64,000 nt of DNA, taken from the NCBI GenBank assembly GCA_010356995.1, contig ML996701.1:674963-738962 (forward strand), given 5' to 3'. Source of the stretch: Trichodelitschia bisporula. Taxonomy: Eukaryota. Positions 27,531 to 48,631 of the stretch are shown here, one piece after another. Under the pieces are notes generated by a model. It was not told where the DNA came from, did no database searches, and worked only from the letters and a program-made list of their open reading frames with translations. The first letter of the stretch is position 1, and the number at the start of each line of letters is the position of its first letter. The translations under genes and the position numbers were made by a program.

Positions 27531-28217
27531 GCAATAGTCTCAAAGTGAAGAAAAATAAAAAAGGCACTTAAAATCAAAAATATACAGCTAAGTTCGACAA
27601 AGAGACGTCATCTCATCGCCCTCATCATCACGTCATCACGTACCGTGGTGATGGTGAGATACGCTATGCTGACGGCACAACCGGCGAAATCTTAGCCTCA
27701 CTCCTCACTCTGCCGCGCATCGTGGTATATTCGAGCTCTACAACTACCGTATTCCAGCAATGGCGATCTTCAAGAATATTCAGACCTCGATTTGCGTGGC
27801 TTGTTCATCCGAAAACGTCGAGCAGAGGCTTATCGGCTAACGTGCCAATAGCGTTCAGCATCTTCGAGACTGGTCCATCTAGGTACTGCATAGGAGGAGT
27901 TTGGAGTAAGTCACTTATCTGTCTGTCTCCAAATCGGAAGACCCCATGATGCCCTCGCTCGATAGCCTCAACCCCATCCCTTCCAGGTGAACTGTACGGA
28001 TGTACGGTAGCGATTGTCCTATCAACCTAGGCGTCTCGAGCGCCACGCCCTGTCCCGCCATCCATGGCGGCCATCTGGGCAAGGAAGGAGGCGTCAAGGG
28101 CGTCCTCGTATTCTCCATGGCCACAATCAACGTACAAAACCACGCGATACCCGCGGGGCGCCTAACCTCTCTCGCCCTCCCACCCCGTCACCAAAGGCGA
28201 CGCGCCCATCAAGCGAC

Positions 28218-29885: not shown

Positions 29886-30129
29886 TAATGGAAGCGGTTG
29901 ATAAAAGACAAGGAGAGGAAGAGAGTCAAAGAGACGCTTGAGACTAAATAAACAATGTGGCAAATTCCCCATGTTCCTTCCTCCCATCGTGAGCACATTG
30001 CCATGGGAAGGAGTATCCGAGGATACGGTGTATATATTCTTGGGCTTTTCTTCTTCTCTTCTTCATCTTTTATCAACTCTTCACTCCACACCATAGCCTT
30101 TTGGACGTGTCAAGGCTATGCTTCCATTA
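29886..30129. mobile_element. Two decayed LTR-family fragments in inverted (back-to-back) orientation
   Basis: TAATGGAAGC(29886)/GCTTCCATTA(30120) and GTTGATAAAAGA(29897)/TCTTTTATCAAC(30066) are reverse complements. Both arms resemble the 3' part of the 206-408 LTR. Confidence 0.6.
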
Positions 30130-30175
30130 ATCTCTGACGTTACCCAACCGCCACCACCATGAGTAGGCTAACAGG

Positions 30176-32117
30176 TTACCTTGATATCAAAGCCGGCCTA
30201 GTAACTAACTTCCCCTTCACCGACGGCTCCTCGCGGCACAACAACCCCTCAACCTCAACCCAGCTCTCACTCCCCACGCACGCCCGACACCAAAACACCC
30301 CCGTCGGATCAACACTGTGCTTAATGTCCCAAAGCTTATCATAATTCGCCCCCCAAAACGCCCACTGCCACCCGGGCGCGTCCGGATCCGCCTCGTTAGC
30401 ATACGTCCCAGCCTCGGGCGCCAGCCGTCGCAAAGAGAGCCCATACCGCGCAGCCTCCTCCTTGCGCCGCGCCAGTTCGCGCTGATCCGCCCCTTCCCAC
30501 TGCACCTCCGCAGCTGGGCGCATGACCGCCGTGCGGAACGCCGGGTTCACGGCGTTCCCGCCACCCCGCATGAAGGGTGGGTTCCACGTCCCGACCCCCA
30601 TCGTCGCGTCCGTCAGCATGTACGTGTCCGTCCCAAAGGCCCCGCGGATCGCTTGAGCCAGCTCCGGCTGCGCTACGTCCGCCGCGCTCCATAGCCAGGA
30701 GGCCATGATCTTGCTCCCGCCCATGCCGGGGAAGCCCGCCTGGACCGCGTTCGCGGTTTCCGCCTCCGCCGGCGCATTGCTCGCTTCAATCGCCTCGGCC
30801 AGCGATTCGAACTGCACGTACCGCCCAGTAGCCACCCCTGGTGCCGGGCGCCGCGGCTGCCGGGGCTTCCGCCGGTCGTCGTCATCGTCTTTGCCAGAGC
30901 TGGGCCGCGCGCCGCGGTTGCCCGGCATGGCCGCGACGATGGGGTCGACGATGGCGCGCAGGGCGTTCGCCGTCATGTTCGGAACGCTGACGGACCACGT
31001 CGCCTCGCCGCTGCGCCCCGGGTACCCGCGGATGTAGCCACTGCCGCCGACGCGAGCAAGCGCCGGCCACGAGCGATGCATGTGGACGATTTGGTCCCAG
31101 CCTTCGAGTTTGCCGTTGAAGCGGGCCGAGGTTTGCTTGGGGAGGGCTTGGATGGTGAAGGCTGTTGCGACGCCGTAGGTGCTGCCGCCGCCCTGGGGAG
31201 TGGGATTAGTGATGAGTACCGGGGATGAGGAGGGGGGACTTACGCCGCGCATCGCCCAGAAGTACTCCGTGTTCTGACATTCGTTGGCGGTAATGATTTC
31301 CCCCGCGGCGGTTACTAGCTCGATCTCGAGCACCATGTCAGCGCCGAGGCCGTACTTCGCGCTCAACGCTCCGTGGCCCCCGTTCTGCAGATACCCGCCT
31401 AGACTGACGCTGTTGAAGGCCCCGCCCACGACGCCGTAGTCCTTGCCGCGCGCGGACGAGTACACGTCGCCCCACTTGGCGCCGGCGCCGACGGTCGCGG
31501 CAGGGCCGTTAATAACACTGCGGCAACCTTTCGGGGTGAAGGTTGTTTCGTGCCATTTGATGCTCTTGAGCTGGTGAGTCCAGATAGAGAGAGAGTTCGG
31601 CTGCGTAGAGCTGGTTCCATCAGTAAAAAAAACCCCCATACGCAGCACATGCCTACCGGCCCAAAAAGTCATGCCCCGTGCTCTTGATATTCAACCGCAC
31701 ATTCCTGGTGCGCGCAAAATTGACCGCCGCCTGAACGTCCTGCGGGTTACGCGCTTCGACTACGTAGATCGGATATCCGGCCGTGGAACATGATGCCGAT
31801 GCGTCTGGCATGCAGCTGTAGTTGTTGTAGTTCTGCCACATGCCGCTGGTGGGGTGCTTCGCGTGCCACGCGCTATCCTTCCATCCATCCTTGATGTCGG
31901 TGCACGCATCCGTGCTGTATCCTGGCTGACCGCGATGGCATCCCGCGGCCGGCGCATTCGGCTTCAGCAGCTTTCCACCGACCGCGGTGTTCAGACCCGC
32001 CCACTCGGCATCGGACGGCCAATCGGCCGTACCGGGCATAGCCTTGCACTGCGGCGCGGCATGGCCGGCGCAAAAGAGCGACAGAAGCGCAAGAGCAAGA
32101 GAAAAGAGTGTCATCAT
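30176..32117 (-). CDS. Secreted FAD-linked oxidoreductase (berberine-bridge-enzyme-like), 3 exons
   Basis: Signal peptide; IKSTGHDFLGRS covalent-FAD motif; GGYLQNGGHG, FWAMRGGGG, YANEAD, FWGANY and DPTGVFWC motifs. Introns 31611-31656 and 31193-31243. Confidence 0.93.
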
Positions 32118-34550
32118 GCTGCTCCGTCGCAGCGTAAACACACACAAGGAACAAAGAAACGAACGTACGCAAAGAAAGCAGCTTTCTCGAAACACCCCGC
32201 GAAGCCCACGCGGGGCCTCGCGCTTTCAAAACCCCGATGGGTAAACTCATGCCAAGGGGTCTGCGGGGATGTCGGATTTGCAGGACAATTAAGAGGCGCG
32301 CAGAGCGGAGACTCGCACAGATCGAGGGGCTGCGCGTGCGGCCATGGCGATCGTATCTGATCTACGTAGAGGGGCGGCGGTGTCTGGGGGGGAGATCGGG
32401 TTCCACGAGTCGGGTCGCCTGGCTGGGTGGTTGGATCGCGGGGATGGGCCGATGGGGAGGGGGGGGGGGGGGAGGGGTAATATGGGTGTATATGGGGGGA
32501 TCGCTTTACTTGCGTCTGGGGAGGGCGTGGGGATCGAGTGGATTAATCAGCGTGGGCTTGGGGGGTTGGGCTTCGGGCTTACTTGTTGGAGGGAGGGAAG
32601 CCGTGAGGGAGGGAGAGGGATGCTCCGAGGCTGGATATTTTGGGGCCTGGTTTAATGTAAATTGGCTACAACGGGAAGGAATACAATTTAGTGGTGACCA
32701 GAGATTCGGCGTGGAAACCGAACGGTCCAATGGCGCACGCCGTCAGAAGTACGTCAAGCCGAGTCAAGAGACCCAGTGACTGGGCGAGGAGCTACGTTAA
32801 ACAGCGGCGATGTAATCGCCTTGGCGAGGCTGGTTTAGGCCATCGAGACGCGAGCGACCGAAGGTCAAAGTGATTGCGGAGGAGAATGCCCAGACGCGGG
32901 GAATGCAGCCCAGACTCTGGAGTTGCGGGGTCTAGACGAGGCTGCCATGGCTGGGATAGGGCGCGGACGCGCAGTTGCGTGTATAATGCAATGTAGACGA
33001 GGCTGTGGCGCTTTGTTTCAGATGTCTCGTTTACTGGAGGGTCAATTTCTGGGCTAATTTCGGGGAGGGAGGAATCACGTGGACCGGGAGAGTCGGGTTT
33101 GTTGAGGTTGCGTTGCGTACAGCCATGTCGATTGTTCAGCGGGATGGACCAGCTGATCTTGAGGGTCATCTTGAATCGTACATCGGTTCTCGGTCCTCAT
33201 TGCCTGGCAAGAAAGACTTGACGTGATGCGAGGGGCATTTGCAAATCCATCAGACACGACGGAAACGGCCGTCCCAGTGTATCTCTGTACCTGATGCCCG
33301 AGCAGCCAAGTACGCTCGCAAACCACTAAAGCAAGGTCAATCCTGTCGCGGCGATGAAGCCGCCGCTGCGAAGTCCTGCAATTGGCTCCTGTTCGCTGAT
33401 AAGGGAGAGATCGGAAACCATAATCTTTAACCTTATATGGTTTAGCTCTGGACGTCTGCTTCACTGGCTAGAAATGGGAGTCGATTCCGGTGTCCGATCG
33501 ATGCGTGCGAGTGCTGGGAAGGGCTGATCCTTGGACGTCAGTTATGTATGTCTCCCAGCGAACGTAGGGTGTGGGAAACGGAGGAAGTGCTGGTGTTGCT
33601 AGACGATGATCTTTAAGCTAGTTAGCGAAGTCATGCAAGAGCAGCACTGGTGCTCAACCCCGTACGTTCGTTTTTACCTCTTCACCTTTACTGCAGGTGC
33701 AGTGCCCTGCAGCTCCTCCTCCTACCGCGATTGAGCTCTACTCTCTGGTTAGGCGTCTCTCGGGTCCAGACAAGATAGCGTTTGTGCGTCAACTTCGGCG
33801 CCTTGAATGCGATCGTGATGAAAAATCGCATCTTTCGTCGTAATGATACAAGGTTCACTAGACCACCTGACCTCGCGAAGGCTGAGCTTCGGGAAGATCT
33901 TCGCTACTACCAACCGGTCGAATGACTTATATCATTGGGACGAAAGGTGCGATTCTGCATCATGGTCGCGTGAAGGCTCCGAAGTCGACGCAGAGACGCG
34001 AGATTAATCTCTAGCCATCCATCTTCCCGATAGAGAAGGCCGGGACGCCGCCGGAATGCCTGATCCATTCGCGTTGAAGATACTTGGCCGAGATCGTCAC
34101 GCAGAACCGGTAGCTCAAAGTGGCAGAGGTTGTAGAGCGCCCAAAGGGTGGCTCCTTCAGCGAACGTGGGATGGCACAGAGAGAAGAGGACGCTTCGATT
34201 GACAAACGGACCATGAATTAGCAACATGATGAGGAGAGTGTGAGATGTCGTCTCCTTTTTTTCTGGTGGTGGTGATCCGAAGGCAGGAGTCTCGGCTCAA
34301 GTGTCCCCGCTCCGGGAGACGACCCCAGGCCATCCAAAAGAGTCATGGCCTATCCATCAATAGTCGCTGCTTTTGACTCGCCAAATTTCTTGTGTAGGTG
34401 CCGCCAGAACTTTCAGGGAAGGCTCCATAACTTCTTGGGATTTGCCTTACCTCCAACAACCTCATTTGCTGACGCAGTGGCGGCATCGACTCATCGAACC
34501 CCGCTGTCGCGCGCAACTTCCTCCCATCTCCTCACAACATCACCCAGCCA

Positions 34551-36218
34551 ATGCCGAAAAAGCACACACGGAAATTCACACCAGGCTCCTACTTATCTCG
34601 CGCTTCCGCTTCAACTGCCTCTCATGGAGCTTCGTCCTCGTCATCAACCGCAGGCTCGACCAGGTCCGTCAATGAACGCCTTGAGCAGTTGCGCCTGGAG
34701 CAGGCTCCCAGAGCCACCCTCGAGCAGCGACAGCAGGTGACCGAGATCGCTACTACCCATAGCATGCCGCCGCAGCTTCGTCGCATCCTCCAGATTCCCG
34801 AGACGGCGCCACCGCCCCCCAGAGCGGGGAGGCGCGTCCCTCGCGCGGCGCGTACGCCTGGTCCTCCACCTCCGCAGAGCTGGCTCCAAGGCGACACATC
34901 ATCATCGTCATCTTCATCCTTAACACCAGACGCAGACGAAATGCCACGCAAACAGGCGGCAAGGTTTAAACCGGACTGGTTCAACAGGATCTCCACACTG
35001 ATCGACGGAGTTCCATTTCCTTTACCCAAAACCCTCCTGGGACAGTCGCTGAAAGCGACCGCTCGAAATTGGGAAACCATAGCTGCAGGCCAGTCCGATG
35101 GTTTGGGCCGCCTCCCGGCCCATCTGAAAGGGAATCTCCTCGCGTACCTCGGCCTCTACTGCGGGGAGAAGGGTATTGACATCGACTTCCTACGCGCTCT
35201 GTTCCGCGCGGAGGTGGCTGAAGATGGAGCAACAGGCTCCGAAGAGCTACAAGTCCTTGATCTTTCTGGTCTCATTAGCGAGAACCTGTCCATGCCTTCA
35301 CTGGTACGATACTTCGAGAAGAAAGACACGGCCGTCAATTCAAGTTCCTCGCAAGGCGAGAATACCGATGCGGAAAGCTCTTTTGTGGCCGATTCGTGGG
35401 AGAACTCCATACCAACCGGGCTTCACACCCCCCGCTTCCCGAATCTGACGCGACTTTCGTTAGCACGCGCCGGACGCTTTGCTTCCTGGCAATCGCTCCT
35501 TCATCTCTCGGACCACTTATCGACTATCACCCATCTCTCTTTGGCGTACTGGCCTAAGCCGCAAACACTCATGTCGATGGAACGACTTCCTCCCAATGTG
35601 CCTCCCGGCGAGTATGAACTTGGAGACGATGAACTTCAAGACGGGTACGATTTAATCTCCCGTATCAGTCGCAACACCTACTGCCTGAAATGGCTAGACT
35701 TGCAAGGCTGTGGCCAGTGGCTCGACATGCTGACTTGGGAACCCGTGGAACCCCAAGGATGGGTGTCCGATCGCAACTCTCCTCCGCCTTTATCTCGCAG
35801 ATATGCTACCTACTGGTCGACACATTGGAAGCAGCTGGAGTACGTCAATCTGTCACAGGCGTGGATACCGGATTCGCGTAGCATTCCACTTATTCAAAGC
35901 TGCCCCGCAAACATGCTCAGTATTCAGTATCTCAAGTTTCTCCGCGAGCTAGCGTACAAGAAAGATGGCGGCGACTTTGAGGTCCGGCACTTACAGTTTA
36001 GGGGGTTAGGGAACCGTTTAGCATACGATGGTTGGATGGCCAGAGAACAGAAGGCAGAGACGTTGGGCGCAGTAGTGAAGGGCAGAGTGGGGTCACATTG
36101 CGTGGTTGACCGTGGATGGCCTGCGCCGCCAGGAATACCGATAGTTATTGATGAAACCGAACTCAACGAGGCGGAGATGGCTCACCGGGCCGCCGTGTTC
36201 GAACTTCTAAACCGGTAA
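34551..36218 (+). CDS. Fungal protein with RNI/LRR-like repeats
   Basis: 555-aa single ORF with LxxLxL repeats (LQVLDLSG, LTRLSLA, ITHLSLA, LKWLDLQGC, LEYVNLS) and an N-terminal SVNERLEQLR / PGPPPPQSW block. Confidence 0.75.
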   Translation: MPKKHTRKFTPGSYLSRASASTASHGASSSSSTAGSTRSVNERLEQLRLEQAPRATLEQRQQVTEIATTHSMPPQLRRILQIPETAPPPPRAGRRVPRAARTPGPPPPQSWLQGDTSSSSSSSLTPDADEMPRKQAARFKPDWFNRISTLIDGVPFPLPKTLLGQSLKATARNWETIAAGQSDGLGRLPAHLKGNLLAYLGLYCGEKGIDIDFLRALFRAEVAEDGATGSEELQVLDLSGLISENLSMPSLVRYFEKKDTAVNSSSSQGENTDAESSFVADSWENSIPTGLHTPRFPNLTRLSLARAGRFASWQSLLHLSDHLSTITHLSLAYWPKPQTLMSMERLPPNVPPGEYELGDDELQDGYDLISRISRNTYCLKWLDLQGCGQWLDMLTWEPVEPQGWVSDRNSPPPLSRRYATYWSTHWKQLEYVNLSQAWIPDSRSIPLIQSCPANMLSIQYLKFLRELAYKKDGGDFEVRHLQFRGLGNRLAYDGWMAREQKAETLGAVVKGRVGSHCVVDRGWPAPPGIPIVIDETELNEAEMAHRAAVFELLNR

Positions 36219-37848: not shown

Positions 37849-38937
37849 GGTGTACTTTTTTTGCGTGGAGTCTGGTGTGTGAGTGGGGGCGCGGTTTGGT
37901 CACCTAGACTGGTTACGCGTCCTGCGGGATGGGCGGGTGTGCGATTTTGCTGCCTGTTGTGCGGAGTGGCGGTGGACGAGAGGTACTCTACGTTGTACAT
38001 GGCACCAGCTGCATGGCGGCACTGTATTATGAACGCAGCTCATGACGCGGAAGCGACAAAGGACGACTGCAAAGCGTGATACTTTGTCTCCGGTGTTTAA
38101 GTCACATTTTGTCTCCGGACTAAAGTCACGATGCTACCGTAGAACATCGGTTTGGCCCGGACGAACGAGGCACAGATCGGCACTGCCCCGGGTGAGAAAC
38201 GGCAAGCCACATGCTGGACTAATTATATGCCTGGGTTTCAACCTCGCCTCCCACAGATCTAACGCTGGAACAACTGATGACGCCTGTCACCGGGCTGTGA
38301 GGAAGATGTCAGGCGGGTCTGACAGCGCTGGCCGTGGCTGTGCGACATATCGCATCCTCGCAGAGAAGGACGAAGGAAGGGCGAAACTTGCTGCCGCAGC
38401 TTTGCGCTGTGAAGCCCGGGTCTCGAGTAACGATTTCTTCGTGGCTTGCTCGGGAAGCTCCACACCCGGGCCTCCCGCCGTGGCGCAGCAGCGCGCATCT
38501 GAGACTCGGTCAGTACCCGTAAGTCCTTGCTCAACTTTCAGCCTTTCATCTCCCATATCTTGGGCAGCAACTTCATCACCATTCCACAGTCTAAGCCCCT
38601 CTTCCGTTCCCGCCGCAACCAGGCGGCAGCAAGGTGGCTTGACTGGGGTGCGACGGGAGCGCCGTCTGACTGGCCGAGCGGGCCCGACCCTTGTAAAGCC
38701 GGGGGGCGGCACGCGCGGGGCCCGGGTGATGGGGGCGCAGGCAGCAGTTTGGGGGTTATGAAGGGGGACGACGACGGGCGAGGTGAGAAGGTGAGATTGC
38801 GACTGCGACGACGAGCGCTTTTTGATTCACGATACCGCGACGATACTGCGACGACAGCGACCAGCGACGAGGAGAGCAGCATACGATTTACCGGACGACT
38901 AGAACTACAGGAGCGATTTGGGAGACGGAACACGACA

Positions 38938-41900
38938 ATGGAGGCCGCCTTCGGCCCGCTCCCGCGCCGCTTCTCAGCGAAGCGCTATGCGCCAGAGAAA
39001 GGAGAGATGGTGTCCGATGGGCAGGACAGGAATAAAGCCCCGGAGCTCGTGGCCCTGCACCAGGAATTCCGGATCCAGAACGAGAGGCTCTCGGCTTGGG
39101 GACTCGAGTGGAAGGACATAGCCGGACTCGAGGAGCCAGCTGCGCGCGCCGGCCTGCACGAGACGGTGCAGAGCGTGCTCAAGAACATAGGCGGCATCAT
39201 TGATGAAGCGGAGGGCATACGCTGCGCACCGGCGCAGGCCCTGGGTGGGGAAAAGAAGGTGCGCGCGCAGGAGTGTGTGGCCGATTTGAGGTGGGGTGCG
39301 GCGGATAGGGTCAGGTATGAGGAGTTGGTCAGGGAGTTGAGTAGCAGCATTGATTTGCTGTATGATCTCAGTAAGACGAAGAAGGAGATGCGCAGGGGAA
39401 CGTATCCGACTGGGAATGGGAAGAGTGGCCCACCGCCTGCCGGCCGCTATCTGGATGCGTATGCCAGCTCCGGGTATAACACGAGTGAGGAGACGCTGGT
39501 TACGCCGAGCCGGACGAACACCTCCAAGACGGCGGTGAGCCTGGAGTTGCCGCCCCGGATCGAGCTGAGCAATCTGGATCTCCCGGAGGAAGAGCCCCCG
39601 GCGTATGTTGCGGAGAATGCGCAGCAGCCGCCGACGCGCGTTATCGGGCACCTCATGCAGCCGGCCAAGTCGTGGGGCACGGGCATGGCGGACAGCTGGA
39701 CTGTGCCGGTGCTGGTCGAGTACGCGCCCTTCGACCCCGGGTATCGCAAGACAGGGATCCCGGTGCCGACGAATCGCCTCGAGAGCCTGTTGTCCTTCTA
39801 CGCCCGCTGTGCACCGTTGCCGGATTTCGACGCCTTCGCCACGCTGCCGTGTCTCGGCTTCTTTGAGGATCCGAAGCACAGCCGGTATGGCCTGGTGTAC
39901 GAGCTGCCGAAGGCGGTGCAGGCGGTGCCGTACGACGAGCGGATTGAACAGCGCCCCGCGAGCTTGCTGCAGGCGCTGCAGGCGACTATGCCGCAGGGCA
40001 GCAGCTCGCGGGTCAAGGCTGCGAGCCCGGCGCTTGAGGAACGGTTTCGGCTGGCGCTGAATGTGGTGGCGGCGTTTGCGCGGCTGCATCACGAGGAGCA
40101 AGTGCATAAAGACGTCAACAGCACGAACATCGTGTTCTTCAACACCAGGCCCGGCGGCGGCGGCGGCGGCGCCGACGCGAAGACGAAATACAACCTGCGC
40201 GCACCCTACGTCGCGTCTTTCGACGTGTTCTCCGAGTACAGCATCGAGCCACTCTCTGCCGCCCCGGCGCAGAATCTCTACCGCCATCCCGAGGATAGGC
40301 GCATCTACGAGGCTGCGTGCCGGTTCTGCGGCAGCCGCGCGTGTAAATGTCCGAAGTACCGCTTCGATGTTTATGGTCTGGCGGTTGTACTTCTTGAAAT
40401 CGGCCTGTGGCAGCCCGTCGCTGAGCTCTACAAGCCCCCCTACTCGCTCACCGAATTCAAGCACCGCCGGCTCCAGAACGTGTACGTCCGCAAGCTGGCC
40501 TCCAGGTGCGGGAGCGTGTTCATGAACGTCGTGCTCGACATGCTCGACACCTCCGACACGAATGTCGTCGGCGAGGTCCTGGCGGATAAATACGAGCGCT
40601 GGCTCCACCGGCTCCGGCGCTGCTGCATGCTAGACGAGGACGAGGACCTCGACGTCCGCAGCATGATACCCAGCCTGGGACGCACCTCCCCCTTCACGCA
40701 GCTCCATAGCATCGCGCCCGTCCCCGCCGCCGCCGCGCCCGTCCTCGCCGAGACGCACCCCTTCCGCCCCCTCTCCCACCGCACCTCTCTCCCCTATTCC
40801 ATCAACGAAGCCAACGAGGAAGGCGGCGTGCTACTCGAGAAGACCCGTGACAGCGACAGGGGTGTGGACCGCAAGCCATCCATCGCGACACTGCGTCCCC
40901 GCGCCGACGCCGATAACAGCAGCACCTTCTCCGTGTCCAGCAGCTACCAGCGCGCCGCCAGTGTCATCGCCCGCGCCTGGCGCACCAAGGTGTGCAAGCA
41001 AACCTACCGCGACTGCCGGGCAAAGGTGATCACCCTGCAGCGCTGCTGGCGCAAGCGCGCGTCGCGCACTACATCCGTGGCTACGAGCCAGACCTTCGAC
41101 GACAACGCGAGCGAAGCCGCAGCGCGCGACATGCCCTCCCTCAACGCATCCTTCATGCAAGCCGAGTACATGTCCACGACAACCATGACCTCCGACGCCA
41201 CCCACCACCTCACCCACCACAACATCGCCCACCACGCCCTAATAACCATAGCCACCCCCCCCCGCCCCCGCCCCAAACTTCGCGTCTTCCCCATCAAACT
41301 CGCAAAGGACGCACTGGACACCTGGCACACCACCACCCTCCCCCGCCTTGAGCGCCTCCTCGACCGCGCCCTGCGCGACAGCCCCGAAACCGTCTCCATC
41401 GACCTCCTCGGCGTCGGCGACGCACCCCACTCCACTCGGCCTACCATCTTCGTCACCTGCGACAGCGTGCCCCGCGTGCGCGCCGTGCTGGCCCGCCGCT
41501 TCGCCGCGCCCCCGGGGTTCGACCTCAAGATTCGTCGTGGCTGCATCCGCCGCTCCAAGGTCACGCGCCCGAAGCGCTGCCCGCCGCATCGCAGCATGGC
41601 GCCGGCAGCGGACGCGCCGCCGCTCAACCCGTTCCACCAGCAAAGACCACTGTGCGGCGCGAGTATCGGGGCGTGGGTCGGCGATCGTCATCTCCCGCCA
41701 GTGAGCTACGGGGGCGTGGTGCACGTGGACGGGCGCGCGTATGGGATGACGGTGCACCATTTGCTGGATGCGCCGAGCGACGATGAGAGCGATGCGGGGA
41801 GCGAAGAGTCGTATGCCAGTGGGGGCGTGCAGCGGAGTGCGGCCCGACGGCCGGATAATAGCTGGTTTGCCGGCTTGGCGGGGCATCCGAGTTTGCAGGC

Positions 41901-43005
41901 GCTGCCGCCGGATGGGATGTTCGCGTTGGAGATCTCGGACGATGAGCTTGAGGATGCGACTGAGGAGGACTGGGACGGGGATTTCGGGTACGCGTCGTAC
42001 TCGGACTCGGAGTCTGATAACGAGGAGGAGGGGTTGCGCGAGAGTACGCACACGGAGGGCGATGCCCCCGGCGTAGTCCCGCATAGCCACCCCCCCATCC
42101 CCGTCACCCAACCCGCGCTCGACGACGTAGTCCCGGATTTCTTCCCGGCGGCAGAGGATGTCGACGACGACCATCTCAGCAGCCACACGCTGGGCACCGT
42201 GCACGCGAGCTCTGGGATCCGGCGAGCGCAGCTCGGTGGCGTGGTGCACGAGATCGACTGGGCGCTGCTGGCGCTTGCGCCGGAGCGGCTGCAGCCCGTC
42301 AACCTGGTGCAAGGGGGGAGGCGGTTCCATCCCGCGGCGTGCGGGGCGGGGAAGGGGGTTGGGGCTGCGGTGCAGGAGCCCGTGTGCCGCGGGGCCGGGT
42401 TCGCGGCGGAGGAAGACGAGTACCCGGTGCGGATTGCGGGGGCGGACGAGTTGGGTGGGTTGGCGGTGCATTGTTTTGGGCGCACGAGCGGGTTGCAGGG
42501 GGGGGTGGTGGGGGAGGCGATGAGTAGTGTGAGGATTTACAAGAGGAGGAGTTTTGCGCGGAGTTGGCACGTTGTGGGTGGGTTTGGGGTTGGCGGGGAT
42601 AGTGGTGCGTGGGTTATTGATAATGCGCAGGGTAGGGTGGTAGGGCATGTGCTTGCTTGGTGTGAAAGGAATGCTTTGGCGTATATCTGTCCGATGGAGG
42701 TTTTGCTGTTGGATATGAAGAGGGCGTTGGGGGCGAGATGTGTTACGCTGCCTGGGGCGGAGAGGGAGGATTTGGTTCCGGATGAGATTGAGGATGTTAG
42801 GCGCGCGGTTGAGGGGATTGGGTTGTTGGAAGCGCCGGGGAGGGTGGAGGTGCTGAACGGCGTGGATGTTTTTGGTCCGCCGAGGGAGGATAAGGCGCAG
42901 GTTGGCGTGCAGGAGGTTGATGGGAGGGGGAGGGGGAAGGTGGTGCGCAACGGAGTACCGGTTAGGATGGGTTTTGGGGGGTTTGTAGGACGGGCGGCGG
43001 GGTGA
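38938..43005 (+). CDS. Multidomain HeLo (prion-inhibition)-like + protein-kinase-like + trypsin-like serine protease
   Basis: HeLo-like IQNERLSAWG...RW..ADRVRYEELVRELSSSIDLLYDL; kinase-like CLGFFED, HKDVNSTNI, LYRHP and DVYGLAVVLLEIGLW; protease triad TVHH, IDWAL and GDSGA. Start could alternatively be ATG 38758. Confidence 0.85.
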   Translation: MEAAFGPLPRRFSAKRYAPEKGEMVSDGQDRNKAPELVALHQEFRIQNERLSAWGLEWKDIAGLEEPAARAGLHETVQSVLKNIGGIIDEAEGIRCAPAQALGGEKKVRAQECVADLRWGAADRVRYEELVRELSSSIDLLYDLSKTKKEMRRGTYPTGNGKSGPPPAGRYLDAYASSGYNTSEETLVTPSRTNTSKTAVSLELPPRIELSNLDLPEEEPPAYVAENAQQPPTRVIGHLMQPAKSWGTGMADSWTVPVLVEYAPFDPGYRKTGIPVPTNRLESLLSFYARCAPLPDFDAFATLPCLGFFEDPKHSRYGLVYELPKAVQAVPYDERIEQRPASLLQALQATMPQGSSSRVKAASPALEERFRLALNVVAAFARLHHEEQVHKDVNSTNIVFFNTRPGGGGGGADAKTKYNLRAPYVASFDVFSEYSIEPLSAAPAQNLYRHPEDRRIYEAACRFCGSRACKCPKYRFDVYGLAVVLLEIGLWQPVAELYKPPYSLTEFKHRRLQNVYVRKLASRCGSVFMNVVLDMLDTSDTNVVGEVLADKYERWLHRLRRCCMLDEDEDLDVRSMIPSLGRTSPFTQLHSIAPVPAAAAPVLAETHPFRPLSHRTSLPYSINEANEEGGVLLEKTRDSDRGVDRKPSIATLRPRADADNSSTFSVSSSYQRAASVIARAWRTKVCKQTYRDCRAKVITLQRCWRKRASRTTSVATSQTFDDNASEAAARDMPSLNASFMQAEYMSTTTMTSDATHHLTHHNIAHHALITIATPPRPRPKLRVFPIKLAKDALDTWHTTTLPRLERLLDRALRDSPETVSIDLLGVGDAPHSTRPTIFVTCDSVPRVRAVLARRFAAPPGFDLKIRRGCIRRSKVTRPKRCPPHRSMAPAADAPPLNPFHQQRPLCGASIGAWVGDRHLPPVSYGGVVHVDGRAYGMTVHHLLDAPSDDESDAGSEESYASGGVQRSAARRPDNSWFAGLAGHPSLQALPPDGMFALEISDDELEDATEEDWDGDFGYASYSDSESDNEEEGLRESTHTEGDAPGVVPHSHPPIPVTQPALDDVVPDFFPAAEDVDDDHLSSHTLGTVHASSGIRRAQLGGVVHEIDWALLALAPERLQPVNLVQGGRRFHPAACGAGKGVGAAVQEPVCRGAGFAAEEDEYPVRIAGADELGGLAVHCFGRTSGLQGGVVGEAMSSVRIYKRRSFARSWHVVGGFGVGGDSGAWVIDNAQGRVVGHVLAWCERNALAYICPMEVLLLDMKRALGARCVTLPGAEREDLVPDEIEDVRRAVEGIGLLEAPGRVEVLNGVDVFGPPREDKAQVGVQEVDGRGRGKVVRNGVPVRMGFGGFVGRAAG

Positions 43006-43139: not shown

Positions 43140-43278
43140 GTATGATAGAAGGAGCAAAGGGGGACACTTGGCATCGTGTATTTAAACCTCGAGAGTCTCT
43201 TCCTCTCTTTCTCTGTCTTCTACTTCAATCTTCAGTTTACACAGATGCTTTGCCTGTGTACGAGCCATGCTCCCATCA
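43140..43278 (+). mobile_element. Second copy (3' part) of the solo-LTR family
   Basis: Aligns by eye to ~261-408: GAAGGAGCAAAGG, ATCGTGTATT, GAGTCTCT, GTCTTCTACTTCAA, TTTACACAGATG, TTGCCTGTGTACGAGCC and GCTCCCATCA. No 5' end or TSD identified. Confidence 0.85.
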
Positions 43279-43482: not shown

Positions 43483-44642
43483 CTAACTCGTCTCCGCCGT
43501 ATAACACAACGTCGTAGCATTATAATACCACACATGCGCCTCATACTGATCCTCACTACTCCCCCCCACTGCATTCTCAACACTATCCCCATCCTGCACC
43601 ACAATATCCCCCGGCGTCGGGAACGTCCCCGTCGCACTCGTGATATGGTACCCGGGACTCACGTTGCGGAAGCCGAAGGACAGGGGCGGAAGGTAGGGCG
43701 TCGGGTCCCCGGCGTGCGTGAAGCGCATGTTCGCGCCTTGTGCGGGGGCTTGACCCGAGATCCAGGCCGCGGTGGCTTGGTTGCCCACGCGCGGCGAGCC
43801 ATAGGTGTACTGAACAGCGGTATTAGCACCGATATCAACTAGCTCCCGCGTGAACTCACCATGTCGACGCTCAACCCCCCGGCCCGAAGTTCCGCCGCCG
43901 CAATGGTCGCCAATGCGCCCCCCAAGCTGTGCCCCGTTACCACCACCGGCCAGCCTGGATTCGCCGCCATTGCGCTGGTAACCGCACTCGTCGCCTGCGA
44001 GGCAACATCCTGCCACGCCGAGTAGAAACCAGATGCGATCTTACACCCGCTGCAGCGGGAGTAAGAGCGTAGGGTGAAGGATATGTCGACGATGTCGTTT
44101 TTGGTGGATTCGGAGCCGCGGAAACTGAGCACGATGAGCTGGTTTGTGTAGTCTAGGGAGAGAAAGCCGGCTGTGTCGGTGTTGGGGGACCTGTTGGGGG
44201 GGTTAGCGTGCGGGTGGCCTTTTTGTACAGTGGTTGGGTTGGTGGGGTGGGAGGGGAGGAAGGATGGAGTGTTGGTGTTGGGTTGGATTGGGGGAACGCA
44301 CCCTGGAAGCGCGAGATACACACTCGTATTGGCCGTCTGCACGAGCGGGCAGTTCCCCGTCACGCAACTCAAGTCATGCCCCACGGTGCCGTCGTTGGAC
44401 GGACAGTAGCTTGCCGCGGAGTACTGGTTGTAGAGCTGGCCTTGGGCGAAGAGGGTTGCGCTGATAGCTGCGGCGCGAGCGATTAGCGGGCGCGATTAAG
44501 AGTGGGGGTGTGGGGATTAAGCTTCCGCGGATAGATTGCAGTAGAGTGATCAGGGTAGGGAAAGAGGGCACGTACCGCGCTTCTCCAGCGGCAAGGCTGA
44601 GATTGTGCCCGCGGCCGCGAGAAACAGGGTGAGGAGGAGCAT
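43483..44642 (-). CDS. Secreted class 3 lipase / feruloyl esterase A-like, 4 exons
   Basis: Signal and propeptide ending LEKR; YSAASYC, IVLSFRGS, VTGHSLGGA, YTYGSPRVGN, THAGDPTPYLPP and HVWY motifs. Confidence 0.92.
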
Positions 44643-45937
44643 CTTGATCTCGGACTGCCGGATTGGGGGGGTGGTATGGTGATACTGATAGCGGAAAAAG
44701 GACGCATATATGCGCCGCCGCCCTTCTTATATCCTCAGATCCACAACTCCACCCCTCTCACTCCCATTCCCACCCCCAACCTGCAGCGCCAACCCGCAGC
44801 GCCAACCCGCGCCCGCAGCGCGACCACGCCGCCCCAAAATCCTCGTCCTCCACCGGCCTACGCCTCCGGGGAACCAATCCTCCCCTCCGCGGCCACCACG
44901 CGCGCCGCCCACGCATCAAAACATCAGCTCCATCGACTCAGGTCCAGGCCGCAGGACCGGCGGGCCAGGACCGCGGGTCGAGCCCAGCAGTCCGATCCGG
45001 GTGCACGCCAGCATGATCCGGGTCCGCGGTCGGGCCACGCGCCGGATCGGGAAGGCACCGCGGCTGATCCCTGTGCTAATCCCGAGGTCGACGACGCTGG
45101 TGACCGGAGCGTGGGCGGCTCTAAGTTTACAACCCGGATTTCAAGCTGGACTGGGACTCGTGGGCGGTTGCTGCGGCTTACGAGCGGAGTTGAGGCTGGT
45201 TGAGGTGGGGTCGCGTGTGTGAAGTGCGGGGCGCGTGCAGGATGCAGGTCCGCCGTTAGGCGGCTGGGAGAAAAGGGACGGGCCGGACGGGGCTTATTGC
45301 CTAGCTAGAAGACTACCGTACCGTGGAAAACATTTACCGTAAGCGACGGAGAATTTAAGCTTATTCCGTGTACATGACCTGCTCGTGAGGAAAGCGCGTT
45401 GTCGGGTTGTTGCACACGTGAGGTGGGGCCGACGGGGATTGGTCCCATGTAGCGCGAGGCTGGGGCCGCGTTCAGCCTTGTTCCCTGCCGGGGATGCGAG
45501 TCAACGACACGAGCGAGATTTGGGTGGGAAGCTGATGGGAGTTGATGCGGGGAGGAAGGGAGGGCGTGGAGGCGGTGGTGCCCCGCTTTGTGGGCCGCGG
45601 TTATTGTAGCTTAGTTTGTGGAGCTCGAAGTTAAGCTCGGAACTCAAGCTCGAAATCTGTAGTTTTGATTTGTGAGGAGTAGAGATATATTGCTTGTTCA
45701 AATAGAAAGCTTCATGATGCGGTGCTGCTGGTATTTGCAAACAAACAGGATCAGTCGAGGGCGAAGGGCGCGGAGATTTGTGAGGCGTTTGGGCTGGGCG
45801 AGTTGGGGGGTTGGAATTGGACTACTGTGCATTGTTCAGCTATTAATGGGGGGGGCTGATCTATGAAGTTGAGCCGAGTGCTCTAGGATAGCTGGGCTGA
45901 ATGCTCCATGGCAGTACGCTGCGCAACCGGCAGAAAG

Positions 45938-46790
45938 CAGAGTTTGCTATATATTTCCACCGCCGCAAATACTGTTAAAGGTTGGGGGAAGCAGGCCATG
46001 CGTAGCCGAGTGGTACATCGACGGGTGTGCCACTGGGTAATGATCGCAGACACCTGACTCCAATAAAACCCCCCAGTTTAAAAATCCTCCTCTAAGGCGC
46101 CGGAGAACAGGGTTTTCGTAGCTCGACCTACAGCACCATAGTATGGCGAGTGAGCTTTTGCTATTTAGCCGCTTAGATTTCTTTTTGGAGGCCTGTTGTA
46201 GGTGCTATTGAGGGGATCGTGAATAGCGGGATAAATGGGACGAATAGGGGGCATGGATGGGATGAATACTCCGTAGGAGCATAAAGGTCTGCAGTTCAAT
46301 TCCTGCGCCGACCGCTCAAAAAAGAGTTATATGAGCTTTCCATCCCCCTGAGCTTTTATCCCATCTTATACTGCCCCTCCTGGCTACCTCAGCTCCCCAA
46401 GGGTTGAGCTGAGCAAGCTGGTAGCAAACAGAGCAAACTGGCAACAAACAGAGTCTCTTATATGTTTTCACCGCCGCCAAAGTTTGCCACGAGGAGTGGA
46501 GGTCAGGTACTGCGTGGCTGAGGGGTACATCGACGGGTGTATCACTCAGTAATGGCCGCATGAACTTTGACTTCGTTAAAACCCCGCCAGATAAAAATTC
46601 CCCTCCTGGACGCAGGAGAAGGGGTTTTTGTAGCCGGTTCAACCCGGGTGAGCTTTTGCTAGTTTGCTAGATGGGCCTTTTTTTTGAAGCCCTGTTGCGG
46701 CTGCTATGGAGGGATCGTGAATTGCGGCAGAGATCGGATGAATAGCGGCATGAAGCTCTGCAGTTCAATTCCTCCGCCTACCACTCGACA
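45938..46790. repeat. Diverged tandem duplication (~350-380 bp x2) in intergenic DNA
   Basis: Copies at ~45938-46320 and ~46449-46790 share GGTACATCGACGGGTGT, GTGAGCTTTTGCTA, GGGATCGTGAAT and TCTGCAGTTCAATTCCT in the same order. Confidence 0.85.
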
Positions 46791-46816
46791 GTGTTTTTGC
46801 ATCTCCTTCGCCCTCC

Positions 46817-47683
46817 TCACCACTGTATCAGGACCTCCCGTTCCAATTTATCCATCCCAGGCACCATCGCCAGAACCATAAGGTAATAAGGCCTATGACC
46901 CTCCCCCTTCCTCTCCCTCCCCGGCTTGCGATTCATCCCCTCCCACCCCTCCTTCACTGTACGCACCACAAAGCCATGCTCAGTCAACCCATTAAGATAC
47001 GTCTCCACCGTCCGATGCCACTTCCTCACCCCCGGCACACCCAACCACTCCCTATCCCTCGGACCCTCATCCCAATACCCGCTCAACGGCCAATACACAT
47101 CGCCCTTCTCATCCCACCTCCAGACATCCTCCCCCAGCGGCGCCGTAACCACAGGATGCTCAACACTAAACACAAACCTGCCCCCGGGGCTCAACACCTT
47201 CCTCACCGCACTATACACCGCGCTCAAATCCTCAACATAATGCAGCACCAGCGACGCATGCACTATATCCCACGACCTCATCCCCACCTCCCCCTTCAAA
47301 TCCAAATTCGCCAGATCCCCCTTCGCAAACGACACCCCCCTCAGGTATCCCGCCCGCGCCCGCGCGGCATCTAACATAGACTCCGAAACATCGATTCCAT
47401 GGACCCCAGCGCCATTCGTCGCGGCCCATTCGGCAAACCACCCCGGCCCGCAGCCAAGATCGAGGATATCGCATCCCCGGGTCGAACCGAGGAGCGCGCG
47501 CATGGTAGGCCATTCGTAAGCGGTGTCGAGGCCGTGGGTGAAGCGAGGAAGCTGAGAGTAAGCTGCAAAGAAGGCGGGCGAGTCGTAGATGTTTTGCGTG
47601 ACGGAGGCGGGTGTGTCGGTAGGGGCGGGGGCGGTGAGGTCGGTGGTGATATCGGTTGGCTGGGACTGCGTTTCGGACGACAT
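46817..47683 (-). CDS. Class I SAM-dependent methyltransferase
   Basis: QNIYDSPAFFAAYSQLPR; motif I ILDLGCGPG; GIDVSESML, SLVLHYVED, PGGRFVFSVEHP and KWHRTVETYLN. Confidence 0.93.
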   Translation of the reverse strand: MSSETQSQPTDITTDLTAPAPTDTPASVTQNIYDSPAFFAAYSQLPRFTHGLDTAYEWPTMRALLGSTRGCDILDLGCGPGWFAEWAATNGAGVHGIDVSESMLDAARARAGYLRGVSFAKGDLANLDLKGEVGMRSWDIVHASLVLHYVEDLSAVYSAVRKVLSPGGRFVFSVEHPVVTAPLGEDVWRWDEKGDVYWPLSGYWDEGPRDREWLGVPGVRKWHRTVETYLNGLTEHGFVVRTVKEGWEGMNRKPGRERKGEGHRPYYLMVLAMVPGMDKLEREVLIQW

Positions 47684-48631
47684 TTTAGGCGACGAGGTTG
47701 ACTTAGAGACGGAACTCCGTGAATGTGGGGTGTATTTAACCTCGTGAGCGACGTCGTACGGTGTCCGCGTTCAGCCGCTGCAGGGATGCGGCGTGAAATG
47801 CGGGGTCGGTGAGACTGGAACGCGCGATATTGCGCCGCGGGGATTGAATGGCGGTTCCCCGTTGTTCCATTCGGGTTATACCGTACTGCATTCCGTATCC
47901 TGGCGACACGCGAATGTCGTCCGCTTTAACGTAATGCTGCCTTGCCTTCCCGTCCCAGCCTTGCGGGGTGGGGCGAGACAGAGTCTCGTTTCGGCCCGAC
48001 GCGGGCTGACGGGTCGGCCCGCGTGCCGTCCCGGGCCGGGGTGAAACAAGGCAGCGGCGATGGGGTGGGAGTGGATTACAGTCCCCGAGCACAACGAGGA
48101 AGACTTGCATAACCGTGGTTTCCGCGGTGGAGAAGGGAAGGAGGCGGCGGTGAGTGCGTTTCATTGCCAGTGGTCATTATGTCCGGTCGAGGTCCGTGTT
48201 CACATCTTTCATCGTTACGCTATCGTCACCGTTCCTCTATTTCTCAAGCACACGCAAGCCTACACCAAGCCCGCAAAACCACGTCTACATTTCCACTCAC
48301 TTCCAGTTCCCCGCAAGTACTCCCTCTACGCATAATGGCCCTCATCCCCCGCCGCCAGCGCCCCCCCCGCACTGCCATGCACCGCGCCCTCAAATCACAC
48401 ATCCCCAACGCTAAGCCCATGCTCCGCTTCCCGCTTATCTACCTACAAATTCCTCGGTACGCCCGATTGGCCGAAGATGTGGATTTCGAAACCGGTGGGT
48501 TAAGTTTCTGAAGCTTCTGAAGAGAGAAGGGGCTGATTGCGGGTAGAACTGTTGAGGAGGATGGAGGAGGAGCGCGAGTGGTGGATGAAGACGGTGGGAG
48601 CGGTGGAGGGAGAGAAGGAGAAGTGAGAGTC

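What the first reader, a model, noticed from the sequence alone, without database searches (positions are those of the whole stretch)
38938..43005. HeLo-like + kinase-like + IQ-like + serine protease in one polypeptide: a candidate self-contained cell-death switch
Seen in sequence: a HeLo-like helical N-terminus (~39043-39372) and a kinase-like domain (~39709-40625) that keeps HKD (40105-40113) but shows SFD where DFG is expected and has no recognisable VAIK lysine. These are followed by two IQ-like helices and a trypsin-like domain with His (TVHH ~41752), Asp (IDWAL ~42256) and GDSG (42595-42606). Established: HeLo is the membrane-permeabilising domain of HET-S; HeLo-like domains are related to the MLKL 4HB; fungal gasdermins are activated by proteases. 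Inference: the protease could release or activate the HeLo domain in cis, or act on a partner. I do not know of an experimental characterisation of this architecture.
Basis: partly seen in the sequence, partly recalled or inferred. Interest (0 to 1): 0.8.

Follow-up and report, generated by a model that had tools for sequence, protein, structure and literature searches.

The report
SltB-type fungal signalling protease gene
This gene is the counterpart of SltB, a known fungal signalling protease that cuts itself and then activates a salt and alkaline-pH stress regulator, so the unusual domain mix is real but not a newly found cell-death switch.

Summary
The sequence observation holds. One uninterrupted + strand ORF (38938..43005, 1355 aa) encodes an N-terminal HeLo-type helical bundle, an invariant PPxY, a protein-kinase fold with degenerate catalytic motifs, two IQ-like motifs and a chymotrypsin-fold serine protease with an invariant His/Asp/Ser.

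It is not uncharacterised. It is the orthologue of Aspergillus nidulans SltB (AN6132). A 1272-aa Aspergillus family member carries 16 of 20 published SltB landmark residues at the exact published positions. It aligns with the window protein over both halves (E 4e-102 and 4e-54).

For SltB, experiments show intramolecular autoproteolysis that separates the pseudokinase and protease moieties. They also show Ser-dependent processing of transcription factor SltA for cation and alkaline-pH tolerance. So cleavage in cis and action on a partner are right, but a cell-death role has no support.

Points that go beyond the two SltB papers I searched, neither of which contains the word HeLo:
- The N-terminus is a Pfam HeLo domain, giving an MLKL-like layout.
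- The protease module folds like rice NAL1 (ATP-binding-like domain plus protease).
- The catalytic His is most likely in the VHH motif (H940/H941), not the published candidates.
- Dothideomycete members carry an IQ pair.

Verdict: a known family with modest new structural insight.

The parts
38938..43005 (+). Whole coding sequence of the SltB orthologue (1355 aa plus stop), with no intron needed
   Evidence: Searches give the ORF. One search shows family N-termini aligning to this ATG; contigs of two runs of one sample (guessed RNA) start at 38816 and 38889 and carry no joints (weak hint only).
39025..39402 (+). HeLo-type helical bundle (residues 30-155; predicted helices 35-62, 73-96, 121-153)
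   Evidence: Pfam HeLo scores 15.6 bits in the window and 27.6-36.1 bits in 9 relatives. The AF2 model is. The fold of this part alone was not tested.
39595..39606 (+). PPxY motif (P220 P221 A222 Y223) in the linker before the kinase fold
   Evidence: P 61/62, P 62/62, Y 62/62. WW-domain ligase binding is an inference.
39544..40644 (+). Pseudokinase domain (residues 203-569; Pfam DUF7580 covers its C-lobe)
   Evidence: Fold matches are; no beta-3 Lys; HRD Asp is D in 44, N in 16, E in 2 of 62; catalytic-loop Asn in 48 of 62. PMC4557415 calls this part of SltB a pseudokinase.
40966..41067 (+). Two IQ-like motifs 23 residues apart (cores at residues 677 and 700). The stretch between them aligns with the ubiquitinated K690/K693 neighbourhood of the A. 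nidulans cleavage site.
   Evidence: a core is present in 42 of 62 and a tandem 22-24 residues apart in 13 of 62; none in the 6 Eurotiomycete rows. K690 maps to R694 and K693 to K696. The cleavage position in this protein is an inference.
41281..41553 (+). Small alpha/beta domain (residues 782-872) that superposes on the ATP-binding domain of rice NAL1. It holds invariant E817, the counterpart of sltB106 E743K.
   Evidence: NAL1 Z 22.1, rmsd 4.4, 298 aligned, model 19-502 on NAL1 94-449. Searches show the invariant Glu. ATP binding was not tested.
41620..42762 (+). Chymotrypsin-fold serine protease domain (residues 895-1275)
   Evidence: Fold matches are; the core is 60-70% identical across 14 members, the most conserved part of the protein.
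41755..41760 (+). H940/H941 in the GMTVHH motif, the proposed catalytic His (H941 fits the TAAHC-type pattern best)
   Evidence: 62 of 62 invariant. It sits directly after the third strand of barrel 1 in the model. It aligns with H873/H874 of P0317.
41803..42057 (+). Acidic, low-confidence insertion (residues 956-1040) that splits barrel 1 between the catalytic His and Asp
   Evidence: pLDDT below 50 over model 183-262; 30% identity.
42256..42258 (+). Catalytic Asp D1107 (A. nidulans D1036)
   Evidence: 62 of 62 invariant; mapped.
42595..42606 (+). GDSG with catalytic Ser S1222 (A. nidulans S1142; S1142A is a null allele)
   Evidence: PMC4985261 section 10.

Best explanation
The gene is the orthologue of SltB, the signalling protease of the Slt (cation and alkaline-pH tolerance) pathway of Pezizomycotina.

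By analogy with A. nidulans SltB, I propose these steps:
1. The protein is made as a zymogen.
2. Its C-terminal chymotrypsin-fold protease cuts its own chain, intramolecularly, in the linker after the pseudokinase.
3. The N-terminal HeLo + pseudokinase moiety stays necessary, as a prodomain or scaffold.
4. The primed enzyme cleaves the C2H2 transcription factor SltA to its active short form, which in turn drives sltB expression.

Shown here:
- Orthology.
- The folds.
- An invariant triad beside degenerate kinase motifs.

Inferred here:
- The catalytic His is H941 (or H940).
- The domain before the protease is NAL1-like.
- The PPxY recruits an Rsp5/HulA-type ligase.
- The IQ pair gives Dothideomycete members a calmodulin input.
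For: Family and orthology:
- 202 homologues at E<=1e-3 among 7999 scored candidates. They are full-length and collinear in Dothideo-, Eurotio-, Lecanoro- and Geoglossomycetes.
- Aspergillus and Penicillium orthologues of about 1240-1320 aa.
- P0317 (1272 aa, the length of SltB) has 16 of 20 published A. nidulans landmark residues at the exact positions: K257, N544, K690, M692, K693, K703, K707, W722, H925, H1008, H1033, D1036, F1126, G1140, S1142, G1156. Seven other members checked as controls match 0-4 of 20.
- P0001 against P0317 gives 42% identity over 520 aa (E 4e-102), starting at P0317 residue 700, where the paper says conservation resumes. The N-terminal half gives 27% over 615 aa (E 4e-54).
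- a gene tree of 46 rows follows taxonomy (Eurotiomycetes 100, Dothideomycetes 100 SH-aLRT).

Conservation and architecture:
- triad invariant, kinase motifs degenerate.
- of 83 protease-module relatives of 1000 aa or more, 80 carry the pseudokinase and 76 the HeLo part. This agrees with PMC4557415, which found no gene with only the C-terminal part.
- shorter HeLo + pseudokinase proteins exist, like PskA in the paper.

Published function (PMC4985261, sections 4, 6, 10, 12 and 17):
- S1142A is a null allele that abolishes both cleavages.
- The 692-1272 fragment alone is non-functional.
- Cleavage is mainly in cis.
Against: - The A. nidulans sequence itself was not aligned. P0317 (named for A. 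recurvatus in the listing) is a stand-in, and 4 of the 20 landmarks did not match. These are H939, D1037, D1046 and D1049; the papers give H925 and H939, and D1036 and D1037, at different places, and call D1049 poorly conserved.
- No genome is held for the window, so an SltA partner in this organism and reciprocal best hits could not be checked.
- The window protein is a long branch with odd composition and is only 27-42% identical to the Aspergillus protein.
- A. nidulans sltB has one intron; this gene has none.
- AGGCA (SltA-type) sites upstream are not enriched: 5 against 2.4 expected, and 9.6% of sliding windows reach 5.
- Function in any Dothideomycete is untested.
Confidence: 0.85

Rival explanations
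1. Self-contained cell-death switch. The protease releases the HeLo domain, which then permeabilises membranes as HET-S or MLKL does. Death is the main output.
For: - The HeLo family match holds in relatives.
- HeLo followed by a pseudokinase is the MLKL layout. The review PMC12881547 (passages read) notes that some fungal HELL domains sit in kinase/pseudokinase proteins.
- Autoproteolysis does free the N-terminal moiety in SltB (PMC4985261).
Against: - SltB nulls and S1142A mutants are viable stress-sensitive strains, and wild type constitutively holds the cleaved form without dying (PMC4985261).
- All tagged forms are cytoplasmic (same paper, section 13 passages).
- There is no membrane-prone N-terminal helix, and Pfam matches start at HeLo model position 23-39. 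PMC10197012 (passages read) names that helix as the key functional element.
- The gene appears at most once per named species in the listing and its tree follows taxonomy.
- No NLR, amyloid-motif or gasdermin gene was found among the 10 neighbouring ORFs scanned.
Confidence: 0.05
2. Dual-function protein. Besides processing SltA, the released HeLo-pseudokinase fragment has an MLKL-like action on endomembranes that ESCRT normally counteracts. This would explain why slt mutations rescue ESCRT null mutants.
For: - Loss of sltA or sltB rescues near-lethal ESCRT-0/I/II/III nulls, and the authors state that the reason is unknown (PMC3244986, abstract and passages).
- Alleles sltB57 (delN544) and sltB106 (E743K) suppress vps nulls without changing cation tolerance (PMC4557415 passages). 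For sltB57, SltA and SltB proteolysis is also unchanged (PMC4985261 section 17).
- These alleles map to the pseudokinase C-lobe and to the invariant Glu of the NAL1-like domain.
- sltB expression needs SltA, so sltA loss also lowers SltB.
- In mammals ESCRT-III competes against MLKL membrane damage (PMC10298923 passage), and a WW-domain ligase ubiquitinates the MLKL HeLo domain and sends it to endosomes (PMC8816944, abstract only). Here the PPxY is invariant, and K257 of SltB is reported as ubiquitinated.
Against: - There is no direct evidence of membrane binding; localisation is cytoplasmic.
- The HeLo part lacks a hydrophobic helix.
- Partial sltA alleles also suppress, which fits a transcriptional explanation.
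- The MLKL pseudokinase is no closer in fold than other kinases (Z 17.3, rank 28).
Confidence: 0.1

Closest known systems
SltB (AN6132) of Aspergillus nidulans
   Same: - Same collinear architecture and length class.
- The same landmark residues via P0317.
- A pseudokinase lacking VAIK/HRD/DFG and a Ser protease with GDSG.
- A Pezizomycotina family.
   Different: - The window protein has an extra variable linker of about 80 residues and an IQ-like pair that the 6 Eurotiomycete members checked lack.
- It has no intron.
- Identity is 27-42%.
- Its function is untested.
Ssy5 endoprotease of the yeast SPS sensor (MEROPS S64)
   Same: - A chymotrypsin-fold signalling protease with a large N-terminal prodomain.
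- Autoprocessing.
- Activates a latent transcription factor (PMC3145550, listing abstract; PMC4985261 discussion).
   Different: - Sequence relation is marginal. Pfam Peptidase_S64 matched 1 of 14 members at E 0.0079 and 1 of 15 at E 0.32.
- Its prodomain is not a HeLo-pseudokinase.
Rice NAL1 (NARROW LEAF 1) protease
   Same: - Best structural match, covering both the small domain and the protease (Z 22.1, rmsd 4.4, 298 aligned).
- It acts on a transcription factor, FZP (PMC12012508 passages).
- Protein-language-model features also point to Nal1_C clusters (0.92, a lead only).
   Different: - There is no detectable sequence relation.
- NAL1 has no HeLo or pseudokinase.
- ATP binding and the hexameric cage were not tested here.
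MLKL (vertebrate and plant)
   Same: A HeLo/4HB-type bundle followed by a pseudokinase of TKL-like fold.
   Different: - No brace helices are predicted; a disordered linker with the PPxY stands there instead.
- It carries a C-terminal protease.
- It has no known death function.
- The MLKL pseudokinase is not a privileged fold match.
HET-S / HELLP HeLo proteins
   Same: Pfam HeLo family match in relatives.
   Different: - No prion-forming tail and no partner NLR were seen.
- It has no membrane-prone N-terminal helix.
- A profile of 8 N-termini found no solved HeLo structure.

Membership tests
SltB family (Slt pathway signalling protease) | Full-length collinear homology to A. nidulans SltB | tested here: met
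   Tested through the stand-in P0317: 16 of 20 published landmarks at exact positions. BLASTP gives E 4e-102 and 4e-54. AN6132 itself was not aligned.
SltB family (Slt pathway signalling protease) | N-terminal kinase-like domain lacking VAIK, HRD and DFG function | tested here: met
   Kinase fold at Z about 20. No beta-3 Lys in 62 of 62. The HRD Asp is lost in 18 of 62. The window itself keeps HKD and the D of D-V-F.
SltB family (Slt pathway signalling protease) | C-terminal serine protease with the catalytic Ser of GDSG | tested here: met
   S1222 aligns with S1142 and is invariant. The chymotrypsin fold is shown.
SltB family (Slt pathway signalling protease) | Co-occurrence with an SltA orthologue in the same genome | not testable with these tools
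   No genome is held for this window.
SltB family (Slt pathway signalling protease) | Autoproteolysis and SltA processing | not testable with these tools
   This needs experiment. It is shown only for A. nidulans (PMC4985261).
Pfam HeLo (PF14479) | Score at or above the gathering cut-off (23.2 bits) | tested here: not met
   The window protein scores 15.6 bits, E 0.014. Relatives pass: 9 of 9 and 2 of 6. The family as a whole therefore belongs, while the window copy is a divergent member.
HeLo/HELL cell-death effectors (HET-S, HELLP) | N-terminal helix with transmembrane propensity | tested here: not met
   The highest Kyte-Doolittle 19-residue mean in residues 1-160 is 0.54; the family median is 0.62. 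The first 29 residues are polar and basic, with pLDDT below 50.
MLKL family | 4HB plus brace plus pseudokinase, with a specific relation to the MLKL pseudokinase | tested here: inconclusive
   The layout is alike. The rat MLKL pseudokinase scores Z 17.3 (rmsd 4.3, 251 aligned) at rank 28, below RAF, TYK2 and TAK1. The bundle was not folded alone.
Clan PA chymotrypsin-fold serine proteases | Two beta-barrels with His, Asp and Ser in that order | tested here: met
   Alpha-lytic protease scores Z 17.8, rmsd 2.4, 187 of 198 residues. The motifs TVHH, EIDWAL and GDSGAW are present. Triad distances could not be measured because no coordinates are given.
NAL1-like proteases | ATP-binding domain plus protease domain; ATP binding; trimer or hexamer cage | tested here: inconclusive
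   The fold of both domains matches (Z 22.1). There is no sequence match. ATP binding and oligomer state were not tested; the complex job could not be queued.
Peptidase S64 (Ssy5) | Match to Pfam PF08192 at its cut-off | tested here: not met
   There was no hit for the window. One of 14 relatives hit at E 0.0079 and one of 15 at E 0.32.
IQ calmodulin-binding motif (PF00612) | Pfam match at its cut-off (20.3 bits) | tested here: not met
   There was no hit in the window. P0024 scores 19.5 bits. The tandem spacing of 23 residues rests on my own pattern.

The most novel reading that the evidence does not exclude
SltB is a fungal MLKL-like protein. After self-cleavage, its HeLo-pseudokinase fragment acts on endosomal or vacuolar membranes. 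It is tuned by PPxY-dependent ubiquitination and, in Dothideomycetes, by calmodulin. ESCRT counteracts this action. This would explain the long-unexplained rescue of ESCRT null mutants by slt mutations, including alleles that leave cation tolerance (and, for sltB57, SltA processing) intact.
Probability: 0.1. Interest if true: 0.75.

Novelty: already known. Interest (0 to 1): 0.3.

Why it matters
As a gene, it is an orthologue of a characterised protein, so the finding is ordinary.

Four observations may still be useful to people who work on the Slt pathway or on fungal cell death:

1. SltB begins with a HeLo domain. A HeLo + pseudokinase (MLKL-like) module therefore serves as the prodomain of a housekeeping signalling protease. 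This cautions against reading every HeLo protein as a death effector.
2. The protease module is NAL1-like, with the catalytic His upstream of a long acidic insert. This would explain why H1033A was only a partial loss of function.
3. Separation-of-function alleles map to the pseudokinase C-lobe and the NAL1-like small domain.
4. The invariant PPxY and the ESCRT genetics suggest a testable link to membrane trafficking.

Tried and rejected
Searches that gave nothing useful:
- PDB sequence searches found only weak kinase hits. The single protein gave nothing. The whole-family profile gave CLK1 at E 5.7e-4. The protease-module profile gave only an alphavirus capsid protease at E 1.6. The profile of 8 N-termini gave only designed helical proteins at E 0.03 or worse, with no HET-S or MLKL.
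- No Pfam model covers the protease module.
- The fold of the HeLo part alone was not tested.

Steps that could not be run:
The calls were 57, 60 and 64 for two copies of the protease module, then 81, 86, 89, 92, 93, 95, 98, 100, 102, 104, 106 and 109 for protease module plus pseudokinase. There is therefore no result on oligomers or on prodomain-protease binding.
- The genome search 'own' holds no genome for this window.
- The search of earlier findings by sequence returned nothing.

Weak or negative signals:
- Sequencing runs: no RNA holder is listed. Two runs guessed as RNA (one sample) have contigs starting at 38816 and 38889 without joints, which is a weak hint only.
- AGGCA sites upstream are not enriched.

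Literature:
- 'DUF7580' gave 0 papers.
- 'HeLo domain' + 'trypsin-like' + 'fungi' gave 0.
- 'NARROW LEAF 1' + 'trypsin-like' + 'homologs' + 'fungi' gave 0.
- In one search, none of the 15 listed of 55 papers holds SltB together with HeLo, NAL1 or MLKL. The other 40 were not seen.

Rejected idea: my first working idea, an uncharacterised MLKL-like signalling protease, was dropped once the SltB papers surfaced.

Full report
**1. What is in the sequence.**

A single open frame on the + strand runs from 38758 to 43005. Full-length relatives all begin at the methionine encoded at 38938 (alignment A1). The product is therefore 1355 aa (P0001) and needs no intron.

Contigs of two runs of one sample, guessed to be RNA, start at 38816 and 38889 and show no joints. 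A DNA run continues upstream. This is only a weak hint for the start.

**2. Domains.**

*Direct family and structure searches on the window protein.* Pfam gives only sub-threshold HeLo (15.6 bits, E 0.014) and DUF7580. No solved structure matches by sequence.

*N-terminal half.* I folded residues 1-575 with 62 sequences (pLDDT 79.1, pTM 0.77).
- The model shows three long helices (35-62, 73-96, 121-153), then a disordered linker, then a protein-kinase fold from about residue 203 to 569.
- Fold matches for the kinase part: CRAF Z 19.6 (rmsd 3.8, 275 aligned), TYK2 and JAK2 pseudokinases, and rat MLKL pseudokinase Z 17.3 at rank 28. MerTK scores Z 20.2 and HER3 Z 19.7.

*C-terminal module.* I folded residues 775-1290 (pLDDT 80.8, pTM 0.83).
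- The best match is rice NAL1 across both its ATP-binding domain and its protease domain (Z 22.1, rmsd 4.4, 298 aligned, model 19-502 on NAL1 94-449).
- Next comes alpha-lytic protease (Z 17.8, rmsd 2.4, 187 of 198 residues), then the HtrA/Deg proteases (Z about 13).
- A disordered acidic insert (residues 956-1040) splits the first barrel.

**3. Conservation (62 sequences).**

| Feature | Count |
|---|---|
| Protease H940, H941, D1107 | 62 of 62 each |
| Protease S1222 | 61 of 61 with a residue |
| Beta-3 strand Lys | none; Glu 60 of 62, Asp 2 of 62 |
| HRD Asp | D 44, N 16, E 2 |
| Catalytic-loop Asn | 48 of 62 |
| DFG-equivalent Asp (the D of 'SFD', aligned to the CLK1 DFG) | 56 of 62 |
| PPxY before the kinase N-lobe | P 61, P 62, Y 62 of 62 |

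Identity by domain in 14 sequences is 60-70% for the protease core, 46% for the NAL1-like small domain, 45% for HeLo, 41% for the pseudokinase and about 22% for the linkers. The protease is thus the constrained catalytic part and the kinase-like part is a pseudokinase.

**4. HeLo.**

- All 9 relatives tested (8 orthologues and the TPR paralogue P0088) pass Pfam's HeLo cut-off (27.6-36.1 bits).
- 13 of 14 members hit at E<=0.01.
- 2 of 6 Eurotiomycete orthologues pass, and the other four score 16.6-23.1 bits.
- Matches begin at HeLo model position 23-39, so the first helix of the model is not covered.
- The first 160 residues hold no membrane-prone stretch: the highest Kyte-Doolittle 19-residue mean is 0.54. 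Reviews name that N-terminal helix as the key functional element of HeLo/HELL effectors (PMC10197012, passages read).
- A profile of eight N-termini found no solved HeLo or MLKL structure.
- The nearest ESM Atlas clusters are HeLo clusters at 0.89 and 0.86, which is a lead only.

**5. Family and distribution.**

- One search found 202 homologues at E<=1e-3 among 7999 scored candidates. The 120 listed are mostly 1200-1450 aa, from Dothideomycetes (closest Tothia, Verruconis and Venturia at 47-49%), Eurotiomycetes, Lecanoromycetes and Geoglossomycetes. No named species appears twice in that listing.
- A tree of 46 named rows follows taxonomy. Class and order labels are from my recall; the species names are.
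- The protease module searched against 1.84 billion representatives gave 461 hits at E<=1e-3, 314 at 1e-10 and 182 at 1e-30.
- Of the 149 best hits other than the window's own protein, 83 are 1000 aa or longer. Of those, 80 carry the pseudokinase and 76 the HeLo part. The 66 shorter ones may be fragments.
- Shorter HeLo + pseudokinase proteins without a protease also exist (20 hits).
- The 10 neighbouring ORFs scanned encode ordinary enzymes or gave no Pfam hit, and none is an NLR.

**6. Identity: SltB.**

A literature search for Ssy5-like proteases surfaced the A. nidulans Slt pathway. SltB (AN6132, 1272 aa) is described as an N-terminal pseudokinase lacking VAIK, HRD and DFG plus a C-terminal chymotrypsin-like protease with weak S64 similarity. 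It is found only in Pezizomycotina and always occurs with sltA. No gene holds the C-terminal part alone, and there is a paralogue (PskA) with only the N-terminal part (PMC4557415, passages read by term search).

Published experiments (PMC4985261, sections 4, 6, 10, 12 and 17 read) show:
- SltB is cleaved into pseudokinase and protease moieties near residue 692.
- S1142A is a null allele, is not cleaved, and blocks SltA 78-to-32 kDa processing.
- H1033A is only a partial loss of function.
- The 692-1272 fragment is non-functional, and cleavage is essentially intramolecular.
- All tagged forms are cytoplasmic, and an N-terminal GFP tag destroys function.
- K257, K690 and K693 are reported as ubiquitinated.

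Link by tools:
- A search with the Eurotialean member P0112 lists Aspergillus and Penicillium orthologues.
- P0317 (1272 aa) carries 16 of 20 published landmark residues at the exact published positions. Seven other members match 0-4 of 20.
- P0001 aligns with P0317 at 42% identity over 520 aa (E 4e-102), from P0317 residue 700, exactly where the paper says conservation resumes. The N-terminal half aligns at 27% over 615 aa (E 4e-54).

**7. What this adds to the SltB picture (inference unless marked).**

(a) The word HeLo does not occur in either SltB paper. Yet the SltB stand-in P0317 passes the HeLo cut-off (24.4 bits, residues 31-152). SltB therefore has an MLKL-like HeLo + pseudokinase prodomain. 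A review already notes that some fungal HELL domains sit in kinase/pseudokinase proteins (PMC12881547, passages read).

(b) The papers proposed H925, H939, H1008 or H1033 as the catalytic His.
- H925 is not conserved (Gly in the window).
- H1033 lies three residues before the catalytic Asp. That is the position which lines the S2 pocket in chymotrypsin (recalled), and this fits its partial phenotype.
- The invariant VHH motif (window H940/H941, P0317 H873/H874) sits right after the third strand of barrel 1, where the fold puts the catalytic His. The second His fits the TAAHC-type pattern (recalled).
- The published model covered residues 900-1192 and so missed it.

(c) The region just after the cleavage site is a NAL1-like small domain. 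Allele sltB106 (E743K) hits its invariant Glu (window E817). Alleles sltB57 (delN544) and sltB102 (Y568D) map to pseudokinase C-lobe helices, not to a separate connecting region.

(d) The PPxY is invariant, and ubiquitinated K257 lies in the linker before it.

(e) Dothideomycete members carry IQ-like motifs: a core in 42 of 62 and a tandem 22-24 residues apart in 13 of 62, including the window at 677 and 700. None of the 6 Eurotiomycete rows has one (my own pattern). The conserved K-x-K between the motifs aligns with K690/K693 of the Aspergillus cleavage neighbourhood. Slt phenotypes are calcium-remediable (PMC4985261 introduction), so a calmodulin input is conceivable.

**8. Verdict.**

The family is already known.

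The boldest reading not excluded concerns the unexplained rescue of ESCRT nulls by slt mutations. That rescue includes alleles that leave cation tolerance intact (sltB57 and sltB106) and, for sltB57, SltA and SltB proteolysis too (PMC3244986; PMC4557415; PMC4985261). It might reflect an MLKL-like membrane activity of the released HeLo-pseudokinase fragment. This would echo the ESCRT-III against MLKL relation in mammals (PMC10298923, passage read) and WW-ligase ubiquitination of the MLKL HeLo domain (PMC8816944, abstract only). I put this at about 10%.

Supplements of the SltB papers (sequence, phylogeny figures) were not opened and may bear on orthology and on which taxa carry the gene.

Noticed in passing
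window 43170-43263: Just 3' of the gene, contigs of all three laid runs break with loose ends. The DNA run's depth rises to about 2950 against about 400 beside it. This looks like a short multi-copy element (TATTTAAA followed by a CT-rich stretch).
   Followed up: partly
window 28011-31690 and 43839-47770: The neighbours are ordinary enzymes: cytochrome P450 (28011-29885 +), FAD/BBE oxidase (30176-31690 -), class-3 lipase (43839-44495 -) and SAM methyltransferase (46817-47770 -). No NLR or gasdermin-like gene was seen among the ORFs scanned.
   Followed up: partly
window 34473-36218 (+) and 50246-51910 (-): Two long ORFs (581 and 554 aa, stop to stop) have no Pfam match at E<=0.001.
   Followed up: no
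proteins P0088 and P0208 (relatives, not in the window): Module shuffling in relatives. P0088 joins HeLo + DUF7580 to TPR_10/TPR_12 repeats instead of the protease. P0208 joins an N-terminus with MIT-like (28.8 bits against a cut-off of 30) and Drf_GBD-like (23.1 against 30.1) matches, both below Pfam's cut-offs, to the SltB-type protease module.
   Followed up: no
window 41587-41619 (residues 884-894): A conserved 'PPHRSM' linear motif lies in the disordered link between the NAL1-like small domain and the protease barrel. Its role is unknown.
   Followed up: no
window 41929-41946 (residues 998-1003, EISDDE): A near-invariant acidic Ser motif lies inside the otherwise variable insert of the protease domain. 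It has the form of a casein-kinase-2 site (recalled consensus).
   Followed up: no
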